This document shows, one piece after another, positions 10,099 through 22,073 of a stretch of DNA of 39,644 nt. A model generated the notes under the pieces. It was not told the origin of the DNA, did not search any database, and was given only the letters and a program-made list of their open reading frames with translations. Numbering within the stretch: position 1 is the stretch's first letter; every line of letters begins with the position of its first letter. The stretch is from assembly GCA_050741935.1 (NCBI GenBank), contig JBOGFE010000644.1:1-39644 (forward strand). The letters are read 5' to 3'. This stretch comes from Acidimicrobiia bacterium. Lineage in GTDB: Bacteria > Actinomycetota > Acidimicrobiia > IMCC26256 > BP-133. The position numbers and the translations under genes were made by a program.

Positions 10099-10431
10099 GT
10101 GGCGACCGAGAACTACTCACGACACCTGATCCGGATCGCCCGCCGACGCGCCGGACTGACGCAAGAGGCCCTCGCCCGGCGGGCCGCCACCAGCCAGGCC
10201 GCCATCTCGGCCTACGAATCTGGGCGTCGCTCCCCCTCGGTCGCCACCCTCACCCGCATCCTCGAAGCCGCCGGCTTCGAACTCCGGATGCGACTCAGCG
10301 AACCGGACACCCACGACACCACCCGGCGCGTCGCCGAACGACTGCTGCCACCTGACCAACTCGACGCCTTCACCAGAGCCGAGCAGCAACGCACCAGGCG
10401 GGCCCGACGTTCCAAAGCCGTCGGTGCCTGA
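10099..10431 (+). CDS. XRE-family helix-turn-helix protein (putative antitoxin/regulator of the downstream NTase)
   Basis: LIRIARRRAGLTQEALARRAATSQAAISAYESGRRSPSVATLTRILEAAGFEL is a classic HTH_XRE pattern. GTG start. The gene overlaps the next gene by 8 nt. Confidence 0.85.
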   Translation: MATENYSRHLIRIARRRAGLTQEALARRAATSQAAISAYESGRRSPSVATLTRILEAAGFELRMRLSEPDTHDTTRRVAERLLPPDQLDAFTRAEQQRTRRARRSKAVGA

Positions 10432-11971: not shown

Positions 11972-12862
11972 TCAGCCGCCGAAGTCGTAGTGGTCGTAGC
12001 GGGTGTCGTCGCCGGAGGGATCGAAGGTGATGACCCGGTAGGAGGCGGGGCCGGTGCGGACCACGCCGATGGCGTAGCGGGAGCCGCGCACCTCGGGCGG
12101 AAGGGTGTTGAACCCGCCGCGGTACTCGGCGTCGCCGAAGGCGTACACGCCCCCGTCCTGGGCGACGAGCCAGTAGCCCTGGCCGGATTCCGTCCACGCC
12201 CCGCCGACCATGTTGCCGCCCAACTTGATGCTCGGGTCCTGCGGGATCGAGCCCTTGAAGGGTGCGATCCCATCGGGATCGGCGAAGGCACCGCCGTCGC
12301 CCTGCACGACGATGTATCCACCCTGCGTCCGAGGAACCACCGTGGCCATCTCCGCCTCCTGGTCAGGAATGATCGTCCCGTGCCCGAGCACCGGGGCCTG
12401 GTCGTCGAATGCCGGCCGGCCGAACCCCACGATCCACTTCCGGGGCCGGACCTTCTCGTAGACGCCGCCGCCGTTGTCCTGCGACCCGTCGTTGGTAGCG
12501 GACGTGTTCCCTTCGATCGAATGGATCCGGTCGCCGTCGACCCCCGTCACCACCAGCACATGCTGGATGCGCGTCTTGTTGTCGTTGGGGAAGTCGACGA
12601 ACCCGATGTCGCCGGGCTGCGGGTCGTGCACCCACCGACAGGCCCGCCGGAAACCGTCGGCCATGGTGGGTGTATACGCCGACCTGGAGGGCAGCTCGAG
12701 CCCGGCGTCCCGGGCGCAGGCCACGATGAAGGTTGCGCACCACGGCCCCCCGTTGGCATGCCCGGCCCCGGCTGCGAACGGGTTCTTGTTCGAGCCGGGG
12801 GGCCACTCGGTGACCCCGATGTGCTTGCGCAGGCAATCCAGGAACTGCTCCACCGATGCCAT
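11972..12862 (-). CDS. CHAP-domain amidase/peptidase (cell-wall-hydrolase-like) with a C-terminal GGxxxFGDA-type repeat domain; no signal peptide
   Basis: The N-terminus MASVEQFLDCLRKHIGVTEWPPGSNKNPF...GGPWCATFIVACARDAG ... IQHVLVVTG...IHSIEGNTS shows the CHAP Cys/His pattern. The C-terminal part has GGYIVVQGDGGAFADPDG and GYWLVAQDGGVYAFGDAEY repeats. Confidence 0.8.
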   Translation of the reverse strand: MASVEQFLDCLRKHIGVTEWPPGSNKNPFAAGAGHANGGPWCATFIVACARDAGLELPSRSAYTPTMADGFRRACRWVHDPQPGDIGFVDFPNDNKTRIQHVLVVTGVDGDRIHSIEGNTSATNDGSQDNGGGVYEKVRPRKWIVGFGRPAFDDQAPVLGHGTIIPDQEAEMATVVPRTQGGYIVVQGDGGAFADPDGIAPFKGSIPQDPSIKLGGNMVGGAWTESGQGYWLVAQDGGVYAFGDAEYRGGFNTLPPEVRGSRYAIGVVRTGPASYRVITFDPSGDDTRYDHYDFGG

Positions 12863-12930
12863 TCGCCCGTCCTCTCTTGACGGGGCGTACCACCGGAGCC
12901 GCCGTCGGGAAGGACACTACCCACGGCGGC
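12863..12930 (-). promoter_or_regulatory. Structured 5' leader of the CHAP gene (two hairpins, one enclosing the RBS)
   Basis: Hairpin A spans 12898-12930: GCCGCCGT / ACGGCGGC, an 8-bp stem. Hairpin B spans 12863-12888: CGCCCGTC / GACGGGGCG with one bulge. The SD (reverse complement of cctctc, 12871-12876) sits in its loop. Function unknown. Confidence 0.25.
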
Positions 12931-12999
12931 GAGACGCGTCAGGTGCTCGTTCCATCCGGAAGCCAACGTCAACGTAAGGGTCCATTGACTGGCCCGATC

Positions 13000-13017
13000 T
13001 GAGTGGTGCACCACTCA
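13000..13017. promoter_or_regulatory. Perfect 18-bp palindrome TGAGTGGTGCACCACTCA followed by TGAC (candidate operator, copy 1)
   Basis: Read directly from the sequence. It lies in the divergent CHAP/cluster intergenic region, 65 nt upstream of small ORF 13082. A near-identical element (TGAGTGGTCGGCCACTCA+TGAC) is at 18497-18518. Confidence 0.45.
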
Positions 13018-13081
13018 TGACAGCAGGGGCGTCGTACCTCAGGATCACCCCGTCTACAGGGGAAGGGAGGTGTCGACACCA

Positions 13082-13162
13082 ATGAGTTACACCGCGAAAT
13101 GGAAGGCCGCGCGCCAGGCGCGCCAGCAGCGCGCCGCACTGGCGCACACCGCCAAGTGGTGA
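13082..13162 (+). CDS. Unannotated 26-aa small ORF MSYTAKWKAARQARQQRAALAHTAKW (candidate peptide gene heading module 1)
   Basis: ATG at 13082 is preceded by GGAAGGGAGGTG (13061-13072) and the TGA stop is at 13160-13162. It is too short for the ORF track. Whether it is really coding cannot be proven from sequence alone. Confidence 0.35.
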   Translation: MSYTAKWKAARQARQQRAALAHTAKW

Positions 13163-13182
13163 TCCCACACCGATGACCGTTC

Positions 13183-13217
13183 GAGAGGGTCCGGGTGGGG
13201 TCCACTCGGGCCCTCTC
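13183..13217 (+). promoter_or_regulatory. Strong stem-loop between the small ORF and the first large gene (possible attenuator, stabiliser or processing site)
   Basis: GAGAGGGTCC (13183-13192) pairs with GGGCCCTCTC (13208-13217): 10 bp with one G-U pair. The loop can form a further GTGG/CCAC helix. Confidence 0.35.
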
Positions 13218-13238
13218 ACCGGAGAAAACAAGGTGATC

Positions 13239-14624
13239 ATGGCTTCTTGGGGTGGCTTGCTCGCCCAGGTGATGGCCGACGCGGAGACATCTGATGCAGG
13301 CCGCCTGGCCTCGGGCGTCAGGGCATTGCGAGCGGCCGTCGCCCAGGCTCCCGGCAACGACATCGACGAACTGGCCGGCGTCGCCGCCATGCACGAGTTG
13401 CCGTGGGTGCGGATCGCCGTGCTGCAGGCCCTCGTGCAACGGGCCCCCGACCACGACGACGTGCGCCGGGCCACGGCCTGGCTGACGCACGACTACGAGG
13501 ACTTCGTGGCCTTCGCCGCCATCGACCTGGCCGGGCGTCTCGGGCTGCGAGAGGTCCTGGCCGACCTCCTCGTGATCGTCGGGCGCGCCAGTGAGCGCAT
13601 GCGCACCGTGGCCGGGAAGCCGGTCGGGATCGGACACGCGCTGGTGCTCCGGACCATCGCCGCCCTGGCGGGGAGCTCACACCCCGAAGACCTCGCCCGC
13701 CTGGAGCAGGACCTGTTCAGCGCCGGATTCGACGACACGGTGTTTCCGCCTCAGCCCGGGCGGGACGCCTTCGATGCCGGTGACCACACGCACGGCGGGA
13801 TGGTCTCCGTCACCGGAGGGCGGGTCCGGGGTGGGCCACCACCCGCCTTCGACCCCGACACGCTGCTCTTCGACTGGAACGACCCGGAGGTGCCTGCTCC
13901 CTGCGGGGACTTCTGGATCGACGTCGTCCCGGTCAGCAACGCCGAATACGACCGCTTCACCCGCAGCGCCGCTGCCCGGGACCACCGCTTCTGCCACCCG
14001 GCCGAGCCCGAGGGCAAGCTGCACGTGCGCAACACGCTGCTCGACGCCTCCGCCGGAGCCGAGCACCCGGTGACGGGCGTCGACTGGTTCGACGCCTATG
14101 CCTACGCCCGGGCCCGGGGCAAGCGCCTCCCCTCCGAGACCGAGTGGCAACGGGCGGGCCAGGGCGACGACGAGCGGGCCTACCCCTGGGGAGATGTCTT
14201 CGACGGCTCCCGCACGCACTGCCGCCCGGCCCCGGAGCGGGCCGGCTGGGACGGGGTTGCGGCGTGGCGCGACGACCTGCTGGCGCTGGCCGACAGGCTG
14301 CCGGCGGTGACGACCCGGGCCCGGGGGATCCCGGGTGGCGAAAGCCCCTACGGCGTCCGGGACCTGTCGGGCAATGTCTGGGAGTGGACGGCCTCCTCAT
14401 TCGAGGGGCCGGCCTTCAGCCCCGTCGATACCGGCCGGGACGCCATCGACGTCATCTACGACGAGCGTTCCTACGCCGTCATCAAAGGGGGCACCTGGAC
14501 GTCGCTGCCCGAGCAGGTCTCCGTCGCCTTCCGGGGCCGCGACCTCGCCCTCGATCGCCACTTCGAGATCGGCTTCCGCGCCGCCTGCAGCTGTCCACTC
14601 GACCAGGACGGCGCGCAACCGTGA
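13239..14624 (+). CDS. HEAT-like repeat N-domain + SUMF1/FGE-sulfatase (EgtB/PvdO-type) domain protein
   Basis: The C-terminal half reads HPVTGVDWFDAYAYARARGKRLPSETEWQRAG...YPWGD...SPYGVRDLSGNVWEWTASSF...IKGGTW...FRGRD...IGFRAA. I chose the start at ATG 13239 (upstream GGAGAAAACAAGGTG). The alternative ATG at 13173 lacks an SD and would place the hairpin inside the coding region. Confidence 0.8.
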   Translation: MASWGGLLAQVMADAETSDAGRLASGVRALRAAVAQAPGNDIDELAGVAAMHELPWVRIAVLQALVQRAPDHDDVRRATAWLTHDYEDFVAFAAIDLAGRLGLREVLADLLVIVGRASERMRTVAGKPVGIGHALVLRTIAALAGSSHPEDLARLEQDLFSAGFDDTVFPPQPGRDAFDAGDHTHGGMVSVTGGRVRGGPPPAFDPDTLLFDWNDPEVPAPCGDFWIDVVPVSNAEYDRFTRSAAARDHRFCHPAEPEGKLHVRNTLLDASAGAEHPVTGVDWFDAYAYARARGKRLPSETEWQRAGQGDDERAYPWGDVFDGSRTHCRPAPERAGWDGVAAWRDDLLALADRLPAVTTRARGIPGGESPYGVRDLSGNVWEWTASSFEGPAFSPVDTGRDAIDVIYDERSYAVIKGGTWTSLPEQVSVAFRGRDLALDRHFEIGFRAACSCPLDQDGAQP

Positions 14625-16285
14625 CCGTCGACACCGCCCCGGCCACCCTGGTCATCGACGTGTTCGACGACCCGATGACCCTCGATCCCCACAAGGCCTT
14701 CGACACCTCCTCCCGGCACCCGGTGCTCAACATCTACGACGGCCTGCTCGGGCTCGACGAGGACCGGCGACCGTATCCGGTGCTCGCCGCCGACCTGCCC
14801 GTGGCAACAGGGCGCGGCGGCACCTGGGAGGTCGCCATTCCGATCCGCGGCGGCATCCGGTTCCACGACCGGACCCCCCTCACGGTGGATGACGTCGTCT
14901 ACTCGCTGCGACGCATGGCCATCACCGCCGACGGGCCCGCCTCCCTCTGGGCCGACGCTCTCCTCGGGGCCCCCCTGACCCGCCTGTCGGAGGCGGCGGC
15001 GGCGGAGATGGCAGGGCGGATCACGGCCGGCAACGACGGCGTGCTCCTGCGCCTCCCCGCCCCCTACCGGCCGATCGACCTGCTCCTCGTCCAGTGGTCC
15101 CTGGTGGTGAGCCGGCCGTGGTGCGCAGAGCGGGGAGAGTGGGACGGCGACCTCGCCACGGTGGTGCACTTTCTCCGCCGGGGCCGGACTCCACTCGACG
15201 AGCAGGCCAACGGAACGGGGCCCTATGCCCTCCACGGGTGGGACCGCACGCGGCGGGTGCTCACGTTCCGGACGTCAGAGGCCCGTACTTCCGCCGCCCG
15301 CGGCGGCCCCGCCGCTACGGTCGTGCTGCGCTCCGTCGACGATCGGAGAGAGAGGGAACGTGAGCTGCTTGCCGGCGAATGCGACTTCTCGGTGTGCCAG
15401 CCCGAGTCGCGCCGGCGCCTCGGGCGCCTGGAGGGCATCGTGCTCGAGAAGCTGCCCGAGGAGTGGAGCATCAACCCCCTCGGCTTCATCACCCAGCGCC
15501 TCGATCCCCGCTGCGCCGCCGTCGGTTCCGGAGTCTTCGGGCCGGGAGGCCTCCCTCCGGCGGCCTTCGGCGACGTGCATCTCCGACGGATGCTCAGCCT
15601 GTGCTTCGACCACGCCGCCTACGTCGACGACGTACTCGACGGGGAGGCGCTCACCCACTCCCCACCGTTCCCGGCCGGGGCGATCCGGGGACTCGACGTG
15701 GGCCGGGGCATCTTCGACCCGGACCTGGCCCGGGCCGAATGGTCGTCAGCCTGGGACGGCCATGCGGCGAGCGCCGGTTGCCGCATCGTCATCACCACCC
15801 ATGCCGCCAACATCTCGCGGGTCCGGGCGGCCGAATACCTGGCCCGGGGGCTGCGGGCGGTGAGCGACGGCATCGAGGTGGAGATCGACGCCGTGGACTT
15901 CAACACCTTGAACGAGCGGCTCTATGCGGGGCAGTGCCCGGTGGCCTTCGTGGGCTGGGCGAGTGACTTCCTCCACCCCTTCGCCTTCGCCTCCGCGCTC
16001 CTCGATCCCCGGGCCCCCCTGCCCGCCGCCCTCGGCATCGACGACGCCGTCCTCGCCGACCTTGTCCTGCGGGCCCGTCAGGCCGAGCCCGAGGAGGAGG
16101 CGGCGGTCTACCGGCGGATGGCCGAGTACGCCGCCGACCAGGCGCTCTTCCTCGCGCCTCCGGGCAAGATCAGCTACATGACCTACGCCGACCGCTGGCA
16201 GGGCGTCCGGTTGAAGCACCACGTGCCCAACGTGCTCGACTTCGCCAGCTTCCGGGCCCGGGTCGAGGCGGAGCGCCCGGAGTGA
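14621..16285 (+). CDS. Solute-binding-protein family 5 (peptide/nickel SBP) homologue without a signal peptide or lipobox
   Basis: VTVDTAPATLVIDVFDDPMTLDPHKAFDTSSRHPVLNIYDGLLGLDEDRRPYPVLAADLP...IRFHDRTPLTVDDVVYSLRR is the typical SBP_bac_5 N-terminal pattern. GTG 14621 forms a GTGA overlap with the upstream stop. The longer ORF-track start (14144) is out-of-context R/P-rich sequence that overlaps the FGE gene. Confidence 0.75.
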   Translation: MTVDTAPATLVIDVFDDPMTLDPHKAFDTSSRHPVLNIYDGLLGLDEDRRPYPVLAADLPVATGRGGTWEVAIPIRGGIRFHDRTPLTVDDVVYSLRRMAITADGPASLWADALLGAPLTRLSEAAAAEMAGRITAGNDGVLLRLPAPYRPIDLLLVQWSLVVSRPWCAERGEWDGDLATVVHFLRRGRTPLDEQANGTGPYALHGWDRTRRVLTFRTSEARTSAARGGPAATVVLRSVDDRRERERELLAGECDFSVCQPESRRRLGRLEGIVLEKLPEEWSINPLGFITQRLDPRCAAVGSGVFGPGGLPPAAFGDVHLRRMLSLCFDHAAYVDDVLDGEALTHSPPFPAGAIRGLDVGRGIFDPDLARAEWSSAWDGHAASAGCRIVITTHAANISRVRAAEYLARGLRAVSDGIEVEIDAVDFNTLNERLYAGQCPVAFVGWASDFLHPFAFASALLDPRAPLPAALGIDDAVLADLVLRARQAEPEEEAAVYRRMAEYAADQALFLAPPGKISYMTYADRWQGVRLKHHVPNVLDFASFRARVEAERPE

Positions 16286-17550
16286 AGCTCACCGGCGCCT
16301 ACCGGGACGTCCTGCGCCGGCCGCTCTTCCGTCGCTACTTCGCCGGGGAGGGGATCTCCAGCGTCGGCGATGCGATGAGCGAGGTCACGATCGTCGTGCT
16401 CGCCCTCGAACTCGGCACCGGCTCCAATCGGGCGATGGCCGTGGCACTGGCCAGCGCCGCCTACCTGCTGCCCGGCATCGTGACCGGAGCGGCTGTCGGG
16501 CGCCGCCTGGGAGCCGTAAGCCCCCGCACCCTCTTGATCATCGACAATGCCTGGCGGGGCGGATGCCTCGGTCTGGCGGCGGTGTTGACCACGACAGACG
16601 CCATCGGGCTCGGCGGCTACGTCGCCCTGCTGGCGCTCGCCTCCCTGACCCGTCCCCTGGGCGCCGGCGGCTCCCGGACGATCGTCGTCGATCTCGTCGA
16701 CGAGGACGACCTCTTCGCCGCCAACTCGCTGGTCAACACCATCGTTCAGGCCGCCGTGATGTTGGGGCCGGCGGTGGCGGGTGTGCTGGCGGCGGTAATC
16801 GGCCCGGGCCCGGTCCTGGCCATCGACGCCACCACCTTCCTCCTCTTCGTCGCCGCCCTGCTTTCCATCCCGGCGGCGACCATCCCGCCCCGGGAGGTGG
16901 CCGACAGCAGGGTGGGTTCGGCCGCTCTTCCGGCGGCACGGCGCTGGCGGTGGGCCGGCTGGCTGGGCAGCTACCGCACCGTGGCCGGCCTGTTCCTCCT
17001 CACCGGGATCTTCCACGCCCTGTACGGGCCGTTCGTGGTCAGCCTGCCGCTGCTCGTCCAGGAGCGGGCCGGGGCCCTGGCCCCGGCGGCGGCGCTGGGG
17101 CTGCTCTGGTCGGCCTTCGGGGTGGGCGCCGTGCTGGGCGGGCTCGCCGGTGGCAGCCGGGCCTCGCTGGCCTCTCCCCGATCGGCGGCGCTCATCGTCG
17201 CCGGCTGGGGAGCAGCCACGGTGGCCGTCGGACTGCCCGCCCACCTGGCCGTGGCCGGGGCGGCCATGTTCGCCGGCGGTGCCGTCTACGGCCCCTACAT
17301 CGCCATCGTGAGCACCGTGATGCAACAGCACCTGCCGCCACACCGCCTGGCGGAGGCCAGCGCCTACTACCACTCGGTCACCGGGGTCGTCGGGCCGCTG
17401 GGAACGCTCGCCGGCGGAGTCGTCGTCGCCGGCCTCGGCCCCTCCCCGAGCCTGTTCGCCGCCGGCGGGCTCCTGATCGGCTTCGGACTCGCCGCCGCCG
17501 CCCGCCTGGGCACCGCGTCCACGCCGGCGACCCCGGGCGTGCCCGCATGA
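16282..17550 (+). CDS. MFS transporter (MFS_3/EntS-like), exporter candidate 1
   Basis: About 12 hydrophobic segments. N-terminus: MKLTGAYRDVLRRPLFRRYFAGEGISSVGDAM. There is a GTGA overlap with the upstream gene. Confidence 0.85.
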   Translation: MKLTGAYRDVLRRPLFRRYFAGEGISSVGDAMSEVTIVVLALELGTGSNRAMAVALASAAYLLPGIVTGAAVGRRLGAVSPRTLLIIDNAWRGGCLGLAAVLTTTDAIGLGGYVALLALASLTRPLGAGGSRTIVVDLVDEDDLFAANSLVNTIVQAAVMLGPAVAGVLAAVIGPGPVLAIDATTFLLFVAALLSIPAATIPPREVADSRVGSAALPAARRWRWAGWLGSYRTVAGLFLLTGIFHALYGPFVVSLPLLVQERAGALAPAAALGLLWSAFGVGAVLGGLAGGSRASLASPRSAALIVAGWGAATVAVGLPAHLAVAGAAMFAGGAVYGPYIAIVSTVMQQHLPPHRLAEASAYYHSVTGVVGPLGTLAGGVVVAGLGPSPSLFAAGGLLIGFGLAAAARLGTASTPATPGVPA

Positions 17551-18485
17551 CGGGCCGGGGCGCCATGACCGAGCCCTGGTACGGCGACGTGATCCGCCCC
17601 GCCGGCGTCTCGATGGCCGACGACCTGGCCGGGGCCGCCCCGCTAGCGGTCGCCCGTCACCTCCCGCAGGACGAGGCGACGACCGTCGACGAGCGGTACC
17701 ACGACGACGAGGCCGGCATCTACGAGTCCTACTGCCGGGTCCCCCGTGTCGCCGCGGCCGAGGGTTGGATCCTGCCCTGGATCCGGCGCCGTACGCCGGT
17801 GGGGGTCACCGTGGACCTGGGCTGCGGCACCGGGCGGGTGGCCAAGGCATTGGCCGGCCCTCCGGCCCGCCACGTCATCGCCGTCGACCGGTCCTCGGGG
17901 ATGCTGGCGGTGGCGCGCCACCAGGTGCCGTCATCGGGCGTGCTCCTGCTGCGGGCCGACGCCCGGGCCCTGCCCCTCCATGACCAGTCGGTGGACTCCG
18001 TGGTCTGCTCCGGTGTCCTCCACCACATGGCGACCTGGCCCGACGCGCTGCGCGAGGCGGCCCGGATCCTCCGCCCGGGAGGGCGCCTCATCGTGCGCGA
18101 ACCCAACGCCGCTTATCCCGCCTGGCTGTTCGCCCCGGTGGAAGAGGCAATGGACCGCCTCGCCCGCCGGCGCCCCCGGCGAACGCAGGACGGCCCGGGA
18201 GCGGCGACAACGGCCCCGCAGCTGTCGCCGGTGGAACAGCCCATCAGCCTCCCGGCACTGGTGAGCGCGGCCGAGGGGGCCGGGTTCCGCCTGGCCGAGG
18301 CCGGGTCGGCGATGCTGCTGGGCTCACTCGGCCTCCCTGACGCCATCCCCGCCCAGCAGCTCTATTTCCGGCCCGCCAACGTGATCGACCGCCTGGCGCT
18401 CCGCCACCTCCGTCCACCTCTGGGCGCCCTGCTCCTGGCTGTCTTCACCGCAGAAGCCGCACTCAGTCCCGCTCCGCCTTCGTAG
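17547..18485 (+). CDS. Class I SAM-dependent methyltransferase
   Basis: Motif I is VTVDLGCGTGRVAKAL; DRSSGMLAVAR, VCSGVLHHM and LRPGGRLIV follow. ATG 17547 forms an ATGA overlap with the MFS stop. Confidence 0.9.
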   Translation: MTGRGAMTEPWYGDVIRPAGVSMADDLAGAAPLAVARHLPQDEATTVDERYHDDEAGIYESYCRVPRVAAAEGWILPWIRRRTPVGVTVDLGCGTGRVAKALAGPPARHVIAVDRSSGMLAVARHQVPSSGVLLLRADARALPLHDQSVDSVVCSGVLHHMATWPDALREAARILRPGGRLIVREPNAAYPAWLFAPVEEAMDRLARRRPRRTQDGPGAATTAPQLSPVEQPISLPALVSAAEGAGFRLAEAGSAMLLGSLGLPDAIPAQQLYFRPANVIDRLALRHLRPPLGALLLAVFTAEAALSPAPPS

Positions 18486-18496
18486 CCCGGCCGAAT

Positions 18497-18514
18497 TGAG
18501 TGGTCGGCCACTCA
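18497..18514. promoter_or_regulatory. Palindrome TGAGTGGTCGGCCACTCA followed by TGAC (candidate operator, copy 2)
   Basis: The 7-bp arms TGAGTGG/CCACTCA are identical to copy 1, with the same 4-nt spacing and the same 3' TGAC. It lies 12 nt after the methyltransferase stop and 83 nt upstream of small ORF 18597. Confidence 0.45.
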
Positions 18515-18596
18515 TGACGGGACCCGGCCGCATCCGCATCCTGGAAGCAGCAGCCGGGTGACTGGGACGGGCCGCGTCGAGAGGGGAGGTGGAACC

Positions 18597-18761
18597 ATGG
18601 AGAACGGGACAGAAGCGCGTACAGCCGACGAGATCGGCGAGCTCCTCGACGAGATCGGGATGGAGTTCGCCCTGCACACGCATCATCCGCTGACGCACCT
18701 CGAGCTGGGTGACGCTGCACCCGACGCCATCAAGCAGCGGGCAGCCTGCTCGGCCTGGTGA
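18597..18761 (+). CDS. 54-aa small ORF, candidate RiPP precursor peptide: MENGTEARTADEIGELLDEIGMEFALHTHHPLTHLELGDAAPDAIKQRAACSAW
   Basis: ATG 18597 lies 7 nt after GGAGG (18585-18589). It sits alone in the only sizeable intergenic gaps of the cluster (18486-18596 and 18762-18849). The N-terminal half is acidic and helix-like, as a leader would be. The C-terminal half is His-rich and ends Cys-Ser-Ala-Trp. Confidence 0.5.
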   Translation: MENGTEARTADEIGELLDEIGMEFALHTHHPLTHLELGDAAPDAIKQRAACSAW

Positions 18762-18849
18762 CGGTAGAGCGCCGCTAGCAGGCGCATGTAACGAGCTGAA
18801 GCCACCGGCGGCCCGTCCCCACCAGGCCCAATCACCGCGGGAGCGAGAA

Positions 18850-19545
18850 ATGCAGGCAATGCGAGTCGATATCGGAAGGCAGGACGCCGGGTACGGCTAC
18901 GTCCTCGCCGTGGCCATGCGTCAACTGCTGAGAGACATTCCCCCTGAGCTGGCCTCGGCGCCCGTCCTCGTCGGGCAGGTGGCGTCGACCCCGGTTCCCC
19001 GCGTGTACGCCAACCGCACCCGACATGCACCGCTCTTCGTGTTCGACCCCCGGGACGAGCACGTCGAGGCCCAACGGGAGATGCTCTCCGCCGGGCGCCC
19101 GGTGCGCCTCCTCCAGTGCGACGTCACGGATCTGCCCGGGGAGGTCGACGACCTGGCCTGTGTCGTCAATCCCTTCGGGCTCCAGGAGTTCCCTGACCGC
19201 GTCATCGAGTACGGCACCGAAGTCCGCCGGCGCGTCCGAACCGCGGGCTTCCTCCAGACCCTCGACTGGGGCCTCACCGGCTATCCCGACGATCTCCGCC
19301 ACCTGCCCGGCATCCGGGACGAGATCGCCTTCTCCCTGGCCACCCAGTTGAGGCCCTTCGGAGCCGAGGAGGGCTGGAGCCTGTATCGGGAGGTCGCCTA
19401 CGACTTCCACTTCGAACACGATGCCGACCAGGTGGCCGCCATCCTGGTCGCCGACAAGGCGGCGGCCTTCCGCCAGGCCGTGGTCGCCGGCCGCCACATC
19501 CCCATCAGCTCCTCCATCATCTACCGGCTCTACCGTGCTGCTTGA
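18850..19545 (+). CDS. Methyltransferase-fold-like protein with a degenerate SAM motif I
   Basis: VLVGQVASTP sits where VLDLGCGTG is expected. It is followed by FDPRDEHVE, LLQCDVTDLPGEVDDLACVVNPFGLQEF, which resembles the Methyltransf_11 layout. ATG 18850 follows GGGAGCGAG. Confidence 0.5.
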   Translation: MQAMRVDIGRQDAGYGYVLAVAMRQLLRDIPPELASAPVLVGQVASTPVPRVYANRTRHAPLFVFDPRDEHVEAQREMLSAGRPVRLLQCDVTDLPGEVDDLACVVNPFGLQEFPDRVIEYGTEVRRRVRTAGFLQTLDWGLTGYPDDLRHLPGIRDEIAFSLATQLRPFGAEEGWSLYREVAYDFHFEHDADQVAAILVADKAAAFRQAVVAGRHIPISSSIIYRLYRAA

Positions 19546-20404
19546 GTCCGCCGTCAGGCCGGATCGGCCGGTGGTCACCGCCCACCCGGCGGGCTCGGCC
19601 GGCATCGGCGTCGTGCTGCCGCACTCGTCGCGCTGGGAGACGGGGGCCACGCTGGCCGGAACCGGGCGCTTCGTCGACGACGTGGGCTACCGGTCGGTCT
19701 GGCTGCGGGACTGGCCGATCGGCGTCCGCAACAGCGTGTACCCGCTGGACACGGGCACCGGGCACGATCCCGTGGCCTACGCCTCGATCCTCCGGACCCT
19801 CCTGCCGCCGGAGGTGACCGTGGGCCTGGCCGTCCTGCGCCTCGACTACCGCGAGCCGGCCGTCACCGCCCGCAGCATCGTCTCGATGGCCTCGCTGGCC
19901 CGCGGACCCATGATCGTGGGCCTGGGCGGGGCGTCGAGCAACGACCCCACGGCCCAGGAAGAGACCGTGCGCACCTATCGCCGCGTGCGCGCCCTCCTCT
20001 CCTCCGCCGACCACGACTTCGTCGTCCCCGACGACTTCGTCTGCCCGCCCCTGTACCTCGCCAGTCGATCCGTGGCCACCTGGGAGGGGATCGGGTTCGA
20101 GGCGGAGGGTGTCCTCACCACCGAGGTGCATCCCCGCCGGCTGGAGGAGTCGTTGGCCCCCCTGCGCCGGCACCGACCCGGCCTTTCCGTCGGCCTCGAG
20201 TTCCTGGTGGAGCTCGACCGGGCCGATCCCGAACGGATGGTTCGACAGGGCCGGACGCTGATCGTGGGCCGCCGGCGAATCGGGCAGCTGGCCCGAGCCT
20301 GGTCCGACGCCGGTGTGCAGCACCTCCTCGTCCACATGGCCCCGGCGTCGAGCCGTGACGAGCACCTGGACCTGGTCGACGCCATCTCCGGGAGGCAGTC
20401 ATGA
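19535..20404 (+). CDS. Luciferase-like (LLM-class) flavin/F420-dependent oxidoreductase-like protein
   Basis: GIGVVLPHSS...TLAGTGRFVDDVGYRSVWLRDWP... resembles the LLM N-terminal beta-alpha pattern. The GTG start at 19535 is inferred (11-nt overlap with the upstream gene). The family call is moderate. Confidence 0.55.
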   Translation: MLLESAVRPDRPVVTAHPAGSAGIGVVLPHSSRWETGATLAGTGRFVDDVGYRSVWLRDWPIGVRNSVYPLDTGTGHDPVAYASILRTLLPPEVTVGLAVLRLDYREPAVTARSIVSMASLARGPMIVGLGGASSNDPTAQEETVRTYRRVRALLSSADHDFVVPDDFVCPPLYLASRSVATWEGIGFEAEGVLTTEVHPRRLEESLAPLRRHRPGLSVGLEFLVELDRADPERMVRQGRTLIVGRRRIGQLARAWSDAGVQHLLVHMAPASSRDEHLDLVDAISGRQS

Positions 20405-21345
20405 GCAACGAGATCATCGAGGCGTTCCTGGGCGACTCCCGAGAGTTCCTGGACACGACGTACGAGCGGCGGCCACTCATCAGATCCGTCCGCCACCTGG
20501 AAGCCGTGGCGCGGATCATCAGCCTGGAGATGGTCGACGAGCTCATCACCGGTCGCTGGCTCACCAGGCCGACGGCCCGGGTGGTGAGCAAGGGCCGGGG
20601 GCTGCCGGTCGAGGCCTACACCGACGTGCTGGACGACGGCACCCGCCTGGTCAACCCGGCGCTGGTACTCGAGCATCTGAAGAAGGGTGCCTCCTTCGTC
20701 CTCAACCAGGTCGAGCGCCACGTCAGGGCCGTGCATGACGTGTGCGCCGTGCTCGAGGACTACTTCACGGCACCGGTCAACGCCACCCTGTTCGTCACCG
20801 CGCCCGACAGCGCCGGGCTCCGGGCCCACTTCGACGGCCAGCACCTGTTCGTGCTGCAGGTCGGCGGCCTCAAGGAATGGTGCCTGTGGGAGCCTCCCCA
20901 CCCCGACCCGGCGGACTCACGGGTGGTCCCCGAAGACAGCCTCGGGGAGCCGCTCCTGCAGTTCGCCCTCGAGCCGGGAGACCTCCTCTACCTCCCGAGG
21001 GGTTATGTCCATCGCGCCCACACGACATCGATGTTCTCGGCCCATATCACCTTCCTCGTCGAACGGGTCACGTGGCAGGACGCCATCGTGGCCGAGTGCC
21101 GCCGGCTGCTCGACCGGCCCGAGTTCCGCGCCAGCCTCCCGCCCGGTTACGCCGTCGACCCCCCCGACTCCGACCGGCTCGACCTCCTGCAGTCCGCGGC
21201 GCGCCAGGCCCTCCTGACACTCGACGTGGCTGCCGCGCTCGAGCGCTCGGCCGACAACGAGTACTGGAAGCGCCCCATGTCCCCCCGAGGAGCGTTCCTC
21301 AACTGGATCGGGGCCGTTCACGACGACGCGCCGTACCCGTGTTGA
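20401..21345 (+). CDS. JmjC / cupin-4 (ribosomal-oxygenase-like) Fe(II)/2-oxoglutarate oxygenase
   Basis: LRAHFDGQHLFVLQVGGLKEWCLW provides the HxD; GDLLYLPRGYVHRAHT provides the distal His. There is an ATGA overlap with the upstream stop. Confidence 0.8.
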   Translation: MSNEIIEAFLGDSREFLDTTYERRPLIRSVRHLEAVARIISLEMVDELITGRWLTRPTARVVSKGRGLPVEAYTDVLDDGTRLVNPALVLEHLKKGASFVLNQVERHVRAVHDVCAVLEDYFTAPVNATLFVTAPDSAGLRAHFDGQHLFVLQVGGLKEWCLWEPPHPDPADSRVVPEDSLGEPLLQFALEPGDLLYLPRGYVHRAHTTSMFSAHITFLVERVTWQDAIVAECRRLLDRPEFRASLPPGYAVDPPDSDRLDLLQSAARQALLTLDVAAALERSADNEYWKRPMSPRGAFLNWIGAVHDDAPYPC

Positions 21346-22073
21346 ACGCCGATGAGGTGCGGGTCTACGAGCGGGGGGCGCGGGCGGGCCCGAAGCGGAC
21401 GGGCTGCGCCGGGACCACCACGTCGGTCCCGGGGCGGCGCCTGGAGGGGCGCGGACCGGGAATCGCGCTCGAGGCCCCGACGGCGCGCGACGGGGGGAAC
21501 GCCCTCCTGCACGCCCGCCGGAGCAGCCGGAACCTGTGGCACCCCCTCCACCTCGGCGTGCTGAGCGAGGTCCTGCACTGCGCCCTGGCTCCTCGCCGGG
21601 ACGGCGGCCGCCCGTACCCCACCAGCGGCGGCTGCGACGAGCTGCGCTTCCTCCTGCTGTGCCAGCGGGTCGTCCCGATGCCACCGGGGTGGTACTGGCT
21701 CACTCCCGACGTCAGCCGGTTGGTTCCCGCCGACCTGCGGGGCGGCCAGGACGTACTGGCCAAGGTCTCCACGTTCCTCGGGCTCGACCCCGAGCGCGCC
21801 CCTTCGGTGGTGATGCTCGCCTTCTGCGACTGGGAGACGCTCTCCAGCCGCTACGAGCACTGCACACTGCTCAGCGGCCTGTGGGACTGGGGCGCGGCGC
21901 TCCAGACGCTCTACCTGAGTGCCTGTGCCACCGGGACCCCGGCGTGCGCGGTTGCCGCCCTCATGCCCCGGACGCTCGCCCTCCATCTGGGGGTGGACTG
22001 CCGGGCCTTCGGACACGTCGGCACCTTCGCGCTCGGCGGCCCCCCGCCGGTCGGCAGGGACGCCTCCGCATGA
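21339..22073 (+). CDS. SagB-type (nitroreductase-fold, FMN) azoline dehydrogenase
   Basis: LLHARRSSRNLW...RRDGGRPYPTSGGCDELRFLLLCQRV...PGWYWLTP...HCTLLSGLWDWGAALQTLYLSACATG matches the SagB/ThcOx pattern. The start is uncertain: GTG 21339, TTG 21342 or GTG 21357. Confidence 0.8.
   Translation: MLNADEVRVYERGARAGPKRTGCAGTTTSVPGRRLEGRGPGIALEAPTARDGGNALLHARRSSRNLWHPLHLGVLSEVLHCALAPRRDGGRPYPTSGGCDELRFLLLCQRVVPMPPGWYWLTPDVSRLVPADLRGGQDVLAKVSTFLGLDPERAPSVVMLAFCDWETLSSRYEHCTLLSGLWDWGAALQTLYLSACATGTPACAVAALMPRTLALHLGVDCRAFGHVGTFALGGPPPVGRDASA

What the first reader, a model, noticed from the sequence alone, without database searches (positions are those of the whole stretch)
12985..13021. Conserved palindromic element (copy 1) shared by both module heads: TGAGTGG-N4-CCACTCA-TGAC
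At 13000-13017 there is a perfect 18-bp palindrome, TGAGTGGTGCACCACTCA, followed by TGAC. A second copy at 18497-18518 (TGAGTGGTCGGCCACTCA+TGAC) has identical 7-bp arms, identical spacing and the same 3' extension.

Each copy lies 65-83 nt upstream of a small ORF that carries a GGGAGGTG-type SD. I found no further copy when scanning the window for GAGTGG/CCACTCA.

Copy 1 lies in a divergent promoter region where no gene ends, so a terminator role does not explain it. The simplest reading is a shared operator for a dimeric transcription factor that co-regulates both modules. No regulator gene lies inside the cluster; the nearest HTH genes are the XRE proteins at 10099 and 29351.
Basis: seen in the sequence. 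Interest (0 to 1): 0.62.

Follow-up and report, generated by a model that had tools for sequence, protein, structure and literature searches.

The report
Shared regulator box on two promoters
The repeated 18-bp palindrome is very likely the docking site of a LuxR-type regulator, built at a fixed position onto the promoters that start two peptide natural-product operons (and a third, NRPS-type gene cluster elsewhere in this uncultured Acidimicrobiia genome), so it is a new example of a well-known kind of genetic switch.

Summary
TGAGTGG-N4-CCACTCA+TGAC occurs at 13000-13021 and 18497-18518 and nowhere else in the window; 0 of 100 shuffles gave two copies.

It is not a generic repeat. The 78%-complete assembly has four copies. 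In 264 genomes of the order, all but one hit lie in the window's own genus (4 of 5 genomes).

The decisive result comes from 34 distinct sites in relatives and metagenomes. In 31 of them a NANNNT hexamer lies exactly 17 or 18 bp after ATGACN; any other spacing gives 0-3. TGAC is therefore the -35 core, and the palindrome abuts it, centred near -43.5. Mismatched copies show no compensating changes, so this is a protein site on DNA and not a hairpin.

The likely binding protein is a large ATP-binding LuxR-family (LAL) regulator with recognition helix RTVENHLHRAF. That signature occurs in exactly the three other motif-bearing genomes of the 264, and LAL genes sit beside the motif in four further contigs. 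No copy was found in this incomplete assembly.

The only three promoter-type sites in this genome head the two peptide (RiPP-like) modules and an NRPS-type cluster. The XRE candidates do not track the motif. Activation versus repression is inferred; no transcript data were available.

The parts
13000..13017 (.). Palindrome copy 1, TGAGTGG-TGCA-CCACTCA: proposed binding site for a LuxR-type dimer
   Evidence: The arms are invariant across 31 aligned sites while the central 4 nt vary.
13017..13022 (+). Predicted -35 hexamer ATGACA; it shares its first base with the palindrome
   Evidence: TGAC directly follows 10 of the 12 palindromes found without requiring it. Fixed spacing to a -10 hexamer.
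13040..13045 (+). Predicted -10 hexamer CAGGAT, 17-bp spacer; predicted transcription start near 13052
   Evidence: NANNNT lies 17 or 18 bp after ATGACN in 31 of 34 distinct sites; other spacings give 0-3. The start site is inferred, not mapped.
13082..13162 (+). First ORF behind promoter 1: 26 aa, MSYTAKWKAARQARQQRAALAHTAKW, with Shine-Dalgarno GGGAGGTG at 13065-13072
   Evidence: Sequence. A strong hairpin follows at about 13183-13217. Whether the ORF is a real gene was not tested.
13173..18485 (+). Module 1 genes: FGE-sulfatase-domain protein, SBP_bac_5 protein, MFS transporter, methyltransferase
   Evidence: Pfam.
18497..18514 (.). Palindrome copy 2, TGAGTGG-TCGG-CCACTCA, with left flank AAT
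18514..18519 (+). Predicted -35 hexamer ATGACG
18537..18542 (+). Predicted -10 hexamer CATCCT, 17-bp spacer; predicted transcription start near 18549
18597..18761 (+). 54-aa precursor-like ORF, with Shine-Dalgarno GGGAGGTG at 18584-18591
   Evidence: Homologues occur in other YcaO clusters, none with this palindrome upstream.
18847..27924 (+). Module 2 genes: conserved 232-aa protein, luciferase-like monooxygenase, JmjC, YcaO, M24 peptidase, glyoxalase/VOC, MFS transporter
   Evidence: Pfam. The core genes are syntenic with L084, L087 and L088.

Best explanation
Each copy is a composite promoter of about 46 bp. The 18-bp palindrome, with half-site (A/T)(A/T)T-TGAGTGG, is the binding site for a dimer of a LuxR-type helix-turn-helix protein. 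Its last base is the first base of a sigma-70-type -35 hexamer, ATGAC(A/G). A weak -10 hexamer, (C/G)ANNNT, follows after 17-18 bp. This centres the dimer near -43.5, where class-II activators such as lux-box and PAS-LuxR regulators contact RNA polymerase.

The most likely regulator is a large ATP-binding LuxR-family (LAL) protein: AAA_16 ATPase, helical repeats and a GerE HTH, with recognition helix S-L-RTVENHLHRAF-x-KLGV. In this genome the three such promoters start module 1 (26-aa ORF, FGE protein, SBP, MFS, methyltransferase), module 2 (54-aa precursor and the YcaO set) and an NRPS-type cluster on another contig. One regulator would therefore switch several specialised-metabolite operons together.

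Shown here: the motif itself, its lineage restriction, its fixed register to -35 and -10 elements, the lack of compensatory changes, and its co-occurrence and adjacency with the LAL in relatives.

Inferred: the transcription start sites, actual binding by the LAL, the sign of regulation (activation), and that G000 has the LAL in its unassembled 22%.
For: 1. Copy number and distribution.
- G000 has 4 copies.
- Exact palindromes occur in 4 of 5 genomes of the genus, with 12 sites. Among 259 other genomes of the order there is 1 hit, which is chance-like. The reversed-pattern control gives about 0.

2. Promoter register.
- 10 of 12 palindromes found without requiring TGAC carry TGAC at the same position.
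- Across 34 distinct sites from genomes and metagenomes, NANNNT sits at spacer 17 (19 sites) or spacer 18 (12 sites), and 31 of 34 sites carry it at one of the two; all other spacings give 0-3.
- The spacers themselves are not conserved, even between orthologous loci.

3. DNA site, not RNA structure.
- One-mismatch sites (TGAGTGC...CCACTCA and TGAGTGG...ACACTCA) are not compensated.
- The left flank is A/T-rich in a 72% GC genome.

4. Link to the regulator.
- In G001 three to four sites lie upstream of an operon that contains an 895-aa protein with AAA_16 and GerE domains.
- Orthologues of that protein exist in G004 and G003 but not in the motif-less G002.
- LAL genes with the same helix end just upstream of the motif in L051, L066 and L067, and one is divergent from it in L058.
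- The back-translated peptide RTVENHLHRAF occurs in exactly G001, G003 and G004 out of 264 genomes.
- Paralogues at 39-41% identity in a sister genus have a different helix, and those genomes lack the motif.

5. Targets in G000. The composite pattern finds only 3 sites, against 0 in the control. The third heads an NRPS-type cluster.

6. Precedent. LuxR-type and LAL regulators bind palindromes, autoregulate and control biosynthetic clusters (PMC9628970). The 16-bp palindromic PAS-LuxR box lies in the -35 region of its target promoters (PMC9774167).
Against: - No LAL with this recognition helix is found in G000. The position syntenic to the G001 LAL island holds an intact ABC transporter gene instead. 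The regulator is therefore either in the missing 22% of the assembly, absent, or a different protein.
The start sites and the promoter itself rest on comparative inference.
- A generic sigma-70 consensus scan finds no promoter in 12800-19000. The predicted -10 lacks the usual first T.
- A box that overlaps the -35 could equally belong to a repressor, and at least one LAL (SCO6993) is a repressor (PMC9628970).
- The fourth copy, C279:11201, has neither -35 nor -10, so not every site is a promoter.
Confidence: 0.68

Rival explanations
1. The site and protein family are the same, but the regulator is a repressor. The dimer sits on the -35 and blocks RNA polymerase until a signal releases it.
For: The palindrome overlaps the -35 hexamer. 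LAL SCO6993 represses its targets and binds its own promoter at -54 to -37 (PMC9628970). Several sites lie upstream of the LAL's own operon, which fits autoregulation.
Against: The box-to-promoter register is identical in about 30 unrelated promoters, whereas repressor operators usually vary in position. The -35 (A instead of T at position 1) and the -10 (C or G instead of T at position 1 in 29 of 31 sites) are weak, as expected for activator-dependent promoters. Most characterised LAL and PAS-LuxR regulators of biosynthetic clusters are activators (PMC9628970, PMC9774167).
Confidence: 0.2
2. The palindrome acts as an RNA or DNA hairpin: a terminator, attenuator, processing site or stabiliser for module 1 and the upstream genes.
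For: Copy 2 begins 12 nt after a stop codon. The arms can form a 7-bp stem (-16 and -19 kcal/mol in 41-nt contexts; z-scores -1.2 and -2.3).
Against: There is no U-tract and no terminator call. Copy 1 and the C98 copy lie in divergent regions where no gene ends. The arm sequence, not the pairing, is conserved: single mismatches are uncompensated. A -10 hexamer co-conserved 17-18 bp away has no role in a hairpin model. From its own predicted promoter the palindrome would not be transcribed.
Confidence: 0.03
3. The element is a promoter for an alternative sigma factor. The right arm plus TGAC would be an extended -35, and the left arm would be incidental or a second reading in the opposite direction.
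For: The -10, (C/G)ANNNT, is not canonical at its first position. The LuxR HTH is homologous to sigma region 4 (weak Sigma70_r4_2 hits). L081 carries two back-to-back copies that fire in opposite directions.
Against: The left arm is as invariant as the right arm in one-directional promoters. A symmetric copy without any promoter exists at C279. The motif co-occurs with a LAL, not with a sigma gene.
Confidence: 0.05
4. The palindrome is the operator of one of the XRE-family proteins encoded in the window (10099-10431 or 29264-29692).
For: These are the nearest HTH genes.
Against: The closest relative of XRE-1 (83%) is in G002, which has no motif. The motif-bearing G001 and G004 have only 42-53% paralogues of it. 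XRE-2 has no match above 52% identity in any other genus member.
Confidence: 0.03

Closest known systems
PAS-LuxR (PimM-type) operators of Streptomyces polyene clusters, 16-bp CTVGGGAWWTCCCBAG in the -35 region (PMC9774167)
   Same: Both are palindromic sites for a GerE/LuxR-type HTH dimer placed on the -35 region of several operon promoters of biosynthetic gene clusters. In both cases one regulator controls many promoters.
   Different: The sequence is unrelated and the geometry differs: 7-N4-7 arms with a variable centre instead of a continuous 16-mer. The likely regulator has an AAA_16 ATPase and repeats (LAL) rather than a PAS domain. It is not encoded in the cluster. The host is Acidimicrobiia, not Streptomyces.
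lux box with LuxR/TraR-type class-II activation (own knowledge; the 20-bp inverted repeat is cited in PMC9628970)
   Same: Both have a dyad-symmetric box of about 18-20 bp centred roughly 42-44 bp upstream of the start, overlapping the -35, combined with a weak core promoter.
   Different: No acyl-homoserine-lactone-binding domain is involved. The centre here is predicted at -43.5/-44.5 and has not been measured.
LAL regulators: MalT, PikD, and SCO6993 (PMC9628970)
   Same: The candidate regulator has the LAL architecture of an N-terminal P-loop ATPase and a C-terminal LuxR HTH at about 900 aa. It controls specialised-metabolite genes and has sites upstream of its own operon.
   Different: MalT boxes are short asymmetric repeats. 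No consensus could be derived for SCO6993. Here a sharp 18-bp consensus and a fixed promoter register emerge from comparative data alone.
HspR HAIR element, CTTGAGT-N7-ACTCAAG (own knowledge)
   Same: Both share the TTGAGT / ACTCA half-site core in Actinomycetota.
   Different: The spacing between the TGAGT and ACTCA cores is 8 nt, not 7. The GG/CC inner bases are conserved. The targets are not chaperone genes. The co-occurring regulator is LuxR-type, not MerR-type.

Membership tests
LuxR-type (GerE HTH) regulator box on a class-II-like promoter | Dyad-symmetric site of about 16-20 bp with conserved arms | tested here: met
   7-N4-7 palindrome. The arms are invariant and the centre variable in 31 aligned sites.
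LuxR-type (GerE HTH) regulator box on a class-II-like promoter | The site overlaps or abuts the -35 element at a fixed distance from the -10 and the start site | tested here: met
   TGAC directly follows 10 of 12 palindromes found without requiring it. NANNNT lies at 17/18 bp in 31 of 34 sites. Start sites were not mapped.
LuxR-type (GerE HTH) regulator box on a class-II-like promoter | A cognate LuxR-family protein is present in the same genome | tested here: inconclusive
   Met in G001, G003, G004, L051, L058, L066 and L067. Not found in the 78%-complete G000 assembly.
LuxR-type (GerE HTH) regulator box on a class-II-like promoter | Direct binding and regulator-dependent transcription | not testable with these tools
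   This needs EMSA or footprinting and reporter assays.
Intrinsic terminator / structural RNA hairpin | GC-rich stem followed by a U-tract at the end of a gene | tested here: not met
   No terminator-like site in 12800-19000. Copy 1 and the C98 copy follow no gene.
Intrinsic terminator / structural RNA hairpin | Pairing maintained by compensatory changes | tested here: not met
   Variant sites carry uncompensated single changes, while the arm sequence is otherwise fixed.
HspR HAIR operator | CTTGAGT-N7-ACTCAAG upstream of dnaK, clpB or lon (own knowledge) | tested here: not met
   The spacing is N8. The downstream genes are RiPP and NRPS operons, an ABC transporter, a HIT-like protein, an NHL protein and a DUF3558 lipoprotein.
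GntR/DasR dre operator | 16-bp AGTGGTCTAGACCACT with a conserved centre (own knowledge) | tested here: not met
   AGTGG and CCACT are 2 nt closer together here, and the central 4 nt are variable.
Dispersed repeat / MITE | Many copies with conserved flanks | tested here: not met
   There are 4 copies in the genome. Outside the box, the -35 and the -10, the flanks are not conserved.

The most novel reading that the evidence does not exclude
A single lineage-specific LAL regulator acts as a master switch. It wires separately acquired biosynthetic clusters (two RiPP-like modules and an NRPS-type cluster) into one regulon through a portable promoter cassette of about 46 bp that replaced the clusters' native promoters. 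Homologous YcaO clusters elsewhere lack the box, and some carry their own LuxR gene. The box would then be a sequence tag for finding, and a handle for switching on, silent clusters of uncultured Acidimicrobiia.
Probability: 0.35. Interest if true: 0.55.

Novelty: new member of a known kind. Interest (0 to 1): 0.4.

Why it matters
Acidimicrobiia are largely uncultured, and as far as I know almost nothing is known about their promoters or regulons. This analysis gives three things.

- It defines a promoter architecture (box, -35, -10) from comparative data.
- It names a specific candidate regulator.
- It suggests that two unusual RiPP-like modules and an NRPS-type cluster are co-regulated.

In practice this suggests a route to heterologous expression: co-express the LAL from a relative with the native promoters. 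It also gives a 22-bp search tag for further regulon members in metagenomes. Conceptually it is a LuxR-type box on a -35 element, which is a familiar design.

Tried and rejected
- Terminator or hairpin reading. Folding gives only modest z-scores, there is no U-tract, and there is no covariation. Rejected.
- XRE candidates. They fail the phyletic test.
- LAL in G000. I looked with tblastn, a helix regex and a back-translated pattern and found nothing. The syntenic contig C420 carries an intact ABC transporter where G001 has the LAL island.
- The 895-aa LuxR-type gene on C279, 6 kb from the fourth copy. Its helix (RTVQTHLSHVF) differs, so it is not proposed.
- The NarL-type response regulator behind a site in G003. 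It is a target; I have no evidence that it is the binder.
- An analogous palindrome near the 40%-identical LAL paralogues of the sister genus. Nothing convincing was found.
- The box in homologous YcaO clusters. It is absent.
- Literature search for the motif string. Only primer hits came back.
- Transcript evidence.
- HAIR and dre resemblances. These were recalled from memory and rejected on spacing and on the target genes.

Full report
**Observation.** The window has 72% GC. It carries TGAGTGGTGCACCACTCA at 13000-13017 and TGAGTGGTCGGCCACTCA at 18497-18514, each followed by TGAC. With up to 2 mismatches allowed, these are the only matches in the window. Shuffles give a mean of 0.08 matches, and none of 100 reaches two.

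Copy 1 lies between a minus-strand CHAP-domain gene (11972-12862) and a 26-codon ORF (13082-13162). Copy 2 begins 12 nt after the stop codon of a methyltransferase gene and ends 82 nt before the 54-codon precursor-like ORF (18597-18761).

Pfam analysis gives two gene sets.
- Module 1: FGE-sulfatase domain protein, SBP_bac_5, MFS transporter, methyltransferase.
- Module 2: a conserved 232-aa protein, luciferase-like monooxygenase, JmjC, YcaO, M24 peptidase, glyoxalase, MFS transporter.

**Not a generic repeat.** The window is contig C644 of a 4.29-Mb, 652-contig, 78%-complete assembly. Genome-wide there are four exact copies.
- The two copies in the window.
- C98:7625, which lies 54 nt upstream of an ABC ATPase gene in a divergent region.
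- C279:11201, which overlaps the stop codon of a small ORF about 100 nt upstream of a tRNA-Glu gene.

In 61 relatives the palindrome occurs only in the window's own genus, in 4 of 5 genomes with 4, 4, 3 and 1 copies. The reversed-pattern control is essentially empty.

Across all 264 genomes of the order the picture is the same. The only addition is a single hit in G240. That hit is followed by TGTC, has no -10 hexamer, and looks like chance.

Record titles identify the clade as Acidimicrobiia / Acidimicrobiales MAGs. Three more such MAGs from outside the order set carry the 22-mer. Hits in a cyanobacterium, a Streptomyces and an Alteromonadaceae genome are at the level expected by chance for 18 specified bases in 596 Gb.

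**The element is a promoter with a box on it.** When the 12 genus copies are oriented, 10 show TGAC at the same position on one side. The other side is A/T-rich: AAT, ATT, TTT or AAA. Searching with mismatches, and in metagenomes, added more sites.

I pooled 34 distinct sites within one mismatch of the 22-mer and asked where a NANNNT hexamer falls after ATGACN. It falls at spacer 17 in 19 sites and at spacer 18 in 12 sites. Every other spacer from 3 to 49 gives 0-3 sites. In all, 31 of 34 sites have it at 17 or 18.

The spacer sequences are not conserved, even between orthologous loci. The A and T of the hexamer are therefore under selection in their own right.

The aligned columns show the following.
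- The arms are invariant and the central 4 nt are variable.
- The left flank is A at -2 in 21 of 31 sites, A or T at -1 in 27 of 31, and T at 0 in 20 of 31.
- The first base of the -10 is C or G in 29 of 31 sites.

TGAC is thus the core of a -35 hexamer, ATGAC(A/G/C), and the palindrome abuts it.

For the window this predicts:
- Copy 1: -35 at 13017-13022, -10 CAGGAT at 13040-13045, transcription start near 13052.
- Copy 2: -35 at 18514-18519, -10 CATCCT at 18537-18542, transcription start near 18549.

The palindrome centre would lie at about -43.5 (or -44.5 with an 18-bp spacer). A generic E. coli-style scan does not call these promoters. That is expected, given the weak hexamers and the GC-rich host.

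**Protein site, not hairpin.** Variant sites such as TGAGTGC-CCGG-CCACTCA, TGAGTGG-TCGA-ACACTCA and TGAGTAG-TCCG-TCACTCA carry uncompensated changes. The outer TGAGT...ACTCA stays fixed. There is no U-tract and no terminator call. Folding energies are unremarkable for this composition.

**Which regulator.** In G001 four sites lie within 4.3 kb on one strand. They precede a small TPR-like ORF, a 194-aa protein of unknown function and an 895-aa protein. That protein has AAA_16 and GerE domains, which makes it a LAL regulator. It ends ...FVSLRTVENHLHRAFSKLGVTSREEL.

Orthologues at 77-78% identity are present in G004 and G003 with the same cluster of sites. They are absent from G002, the only genus member without the motif.

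Independently, LAL genes with the same helix lie next to the motif in other contigs.
- In MAG contig L051 and metagenome contigs L066 and L067, the LAL gene ends 30-100 nt upstream of the box, and a DUF3558 lipoprotein gene follows.
- In L058 the LAL gene is divergent from the box.
- In L051, L058, L066 and L067, and in the related contigs L059 and L065 where no LAL gene was recovered, an extra TGAGTGG half-site lies about two helical turns (21-22 bp where measured, in L051, L058 and L059) upstream of the box.

A back-translated pattern for RTVENHLHRAF matches exactly three of the 264 genomes of the order: G001, G003 and G004. So the signature is in 3 of the 4 genomes that truly carry the motif and in none of the others.

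LAL paralogues at 39-41% identity in a sister genus have a different helix (for example RTIENHLQRVYEKLGI), and those genomes lack the motif.

**The weak point is G000 itself.** tblastn, a helix regex and the pattern search all find no such LAL there. The position syntenic to the G001 LAL island carries an intact ABC transporter gene. In G001 only the C-terminal remnant of that gene is left, so the G001 island is an insertion. Either the gene lies in the missing 22% of the assembly, or the sites are served by another protein, or they are orphaned.

**Regulon in this genome.** I searched G000 for a palindrome with up to 4 mismatches, followed by TGAC and by NANNNT at 17 or 18 bp. Exactly three sites match, against 0 in the reversed or complemented control.

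The third site, C98:7625, heads an operon of ABC ATPase, ABC-2 permease, thioesterase, cupin-DegT aminotransferase and aldo-keto reductase. It is followed by an NRPS (T-C-A-T), a methyltransferase, an EryCIII-like glycosyltransferase and a sulfotransferase.

All three promoter-type sites therefore start specialised-metabolite operons. Targets in relatives are more mixed: the LAL operon itself, a HIT-like protein, a luciferase-like monooxygenase operon, an M61 peptidase, an NHL-repeat protein, a NarL-type response regulator and a DUF3558 lipoprotein.

The C279 copy has symmetric AAT/ATT flanks and no promoter. It may be a stand-alone binding site.

**The box belongs to the host lineage, not to the cluster.** The 54-aa precursor has no homologue in 60 relatives. 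It does have homologues in other metagenomic YcaO clusters that share the 232-aa protein, the monooxygenase, JmjC and YcaO. None of these has the palindrome upstream of the precursor gene. One type (L084, L085) instead has its own 375-aa TPR-LuxR gene directly upstream.

Module 1 genes are not found next to those clusters, so the two modules are separable units that share the promoter type.

The two XRE genes each overlap a nucleotidyltransferase gene. Their distribution does not follow the motif.

**Comparison with known systems.** LuxR-family proteins typically bind inverted repeats. LAL regulators control biosynthetic clusters and can bind their own promoters (PMC9628970). The PAS-LuxR box is a 16-bp palindrome located in the -35 region of target promoters (PMC9774167). 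The present element works like these. It is a new sequence, in a new host clade, with a 7-N4-7 geometry, and it is tied to a regulator that is not encoded in the cluster.

The resemblances to the HspR HAIR element and the DasR dre element (recalled from memory) fail on spacing and on target genes.

**Verdict.**
- The element is a regulator box fused in fixed register to a promoter.
- The likely binder is a LAL-type LuxR regulator, not an XRE protein.
- The regulon includes a third cluster.

Activation is the favoured mode but is inferred.

Noticed in passing
window 13170-13225: A strong hairpin lies between the 26-codon ORF and the FGE-domain gene: 16-bp stem, -35.3 kcal/mol, z-score -2.97. 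The arrangement resembles the precursor-then-hairpin layout of RiPP operons.
   Followed up: partly
G000:C98 (L089 2062-15100): NRPS-type cluster: ABC transporter, thioesterase, cupin-DegT aminotransferase, aldo-keto reductase, NRPS T-C-A-T, methyltransferase, EryCIII-like glycosyltransferase, sulfotransferase. Its first operon is driven by the same box-promoter as the two window modules.
   Followed up: partly
G000:C279:11201-11218 (L006 1501-1518): The fourth palindrome has symmetric AAT/ATT flanks and no -35 or -10. It overlaps the stop codon of a small ORF and is followed by a second hairpin (GGTGCCACTTCCGGTGGCAC) and a tRNA-Glu(CTC) gene. Its function is unclear.
   Followed up: partly
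L040 (G001:C29:46000-51100) versus G000:C420: In G001 the LAL island, with its four box-promoters, sits where G000 has an intact ABC transporter gene. G001 keeps only an 84-aa C-terminal remnant of that gene, so the regulator island looks like an insertion.
   Followed up: partly
L051 4270-4331; L058 4825-4886; L059, L065, L066, L067: In the LAL / DUF3558-lipoprotein loci an extra TGAGTGG half-site lies 21-22 bp (two helical turns) upstream of the palindrome. This suggests cooperative binding of further protomers.
   Followed up: no
L081 1365-1417: Two copies of the full box-promoter lie back to back, 9 bp apart, and fire in opposite directions: a divergent pair of regulated promoters.
   Followed up: no
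L084 796-1923, L085 378-1505: A homologous YcaO/precursor cluster carries its own 375-aa TPR-GerE (LuxR-type) regulator gene immediately upstream of the precursor gene and has no TGAGTGG box. Related clusters thus seem to have swapped regulatory inputs.
   Followed up: partly
window 5000-30000: The third-codon-position GC of genes in this stretch (about 0.8-0.9) is lower than in the flanks (0.94-0.98). The stretch is bracketed by XRE + nucleotidyltransferase pairs and holds a CHAP-domain gene. The precursor has no homologue in 60 relatives. Together this suggests the whole block is accessory or horizontally acquired.
   Followed up: partly
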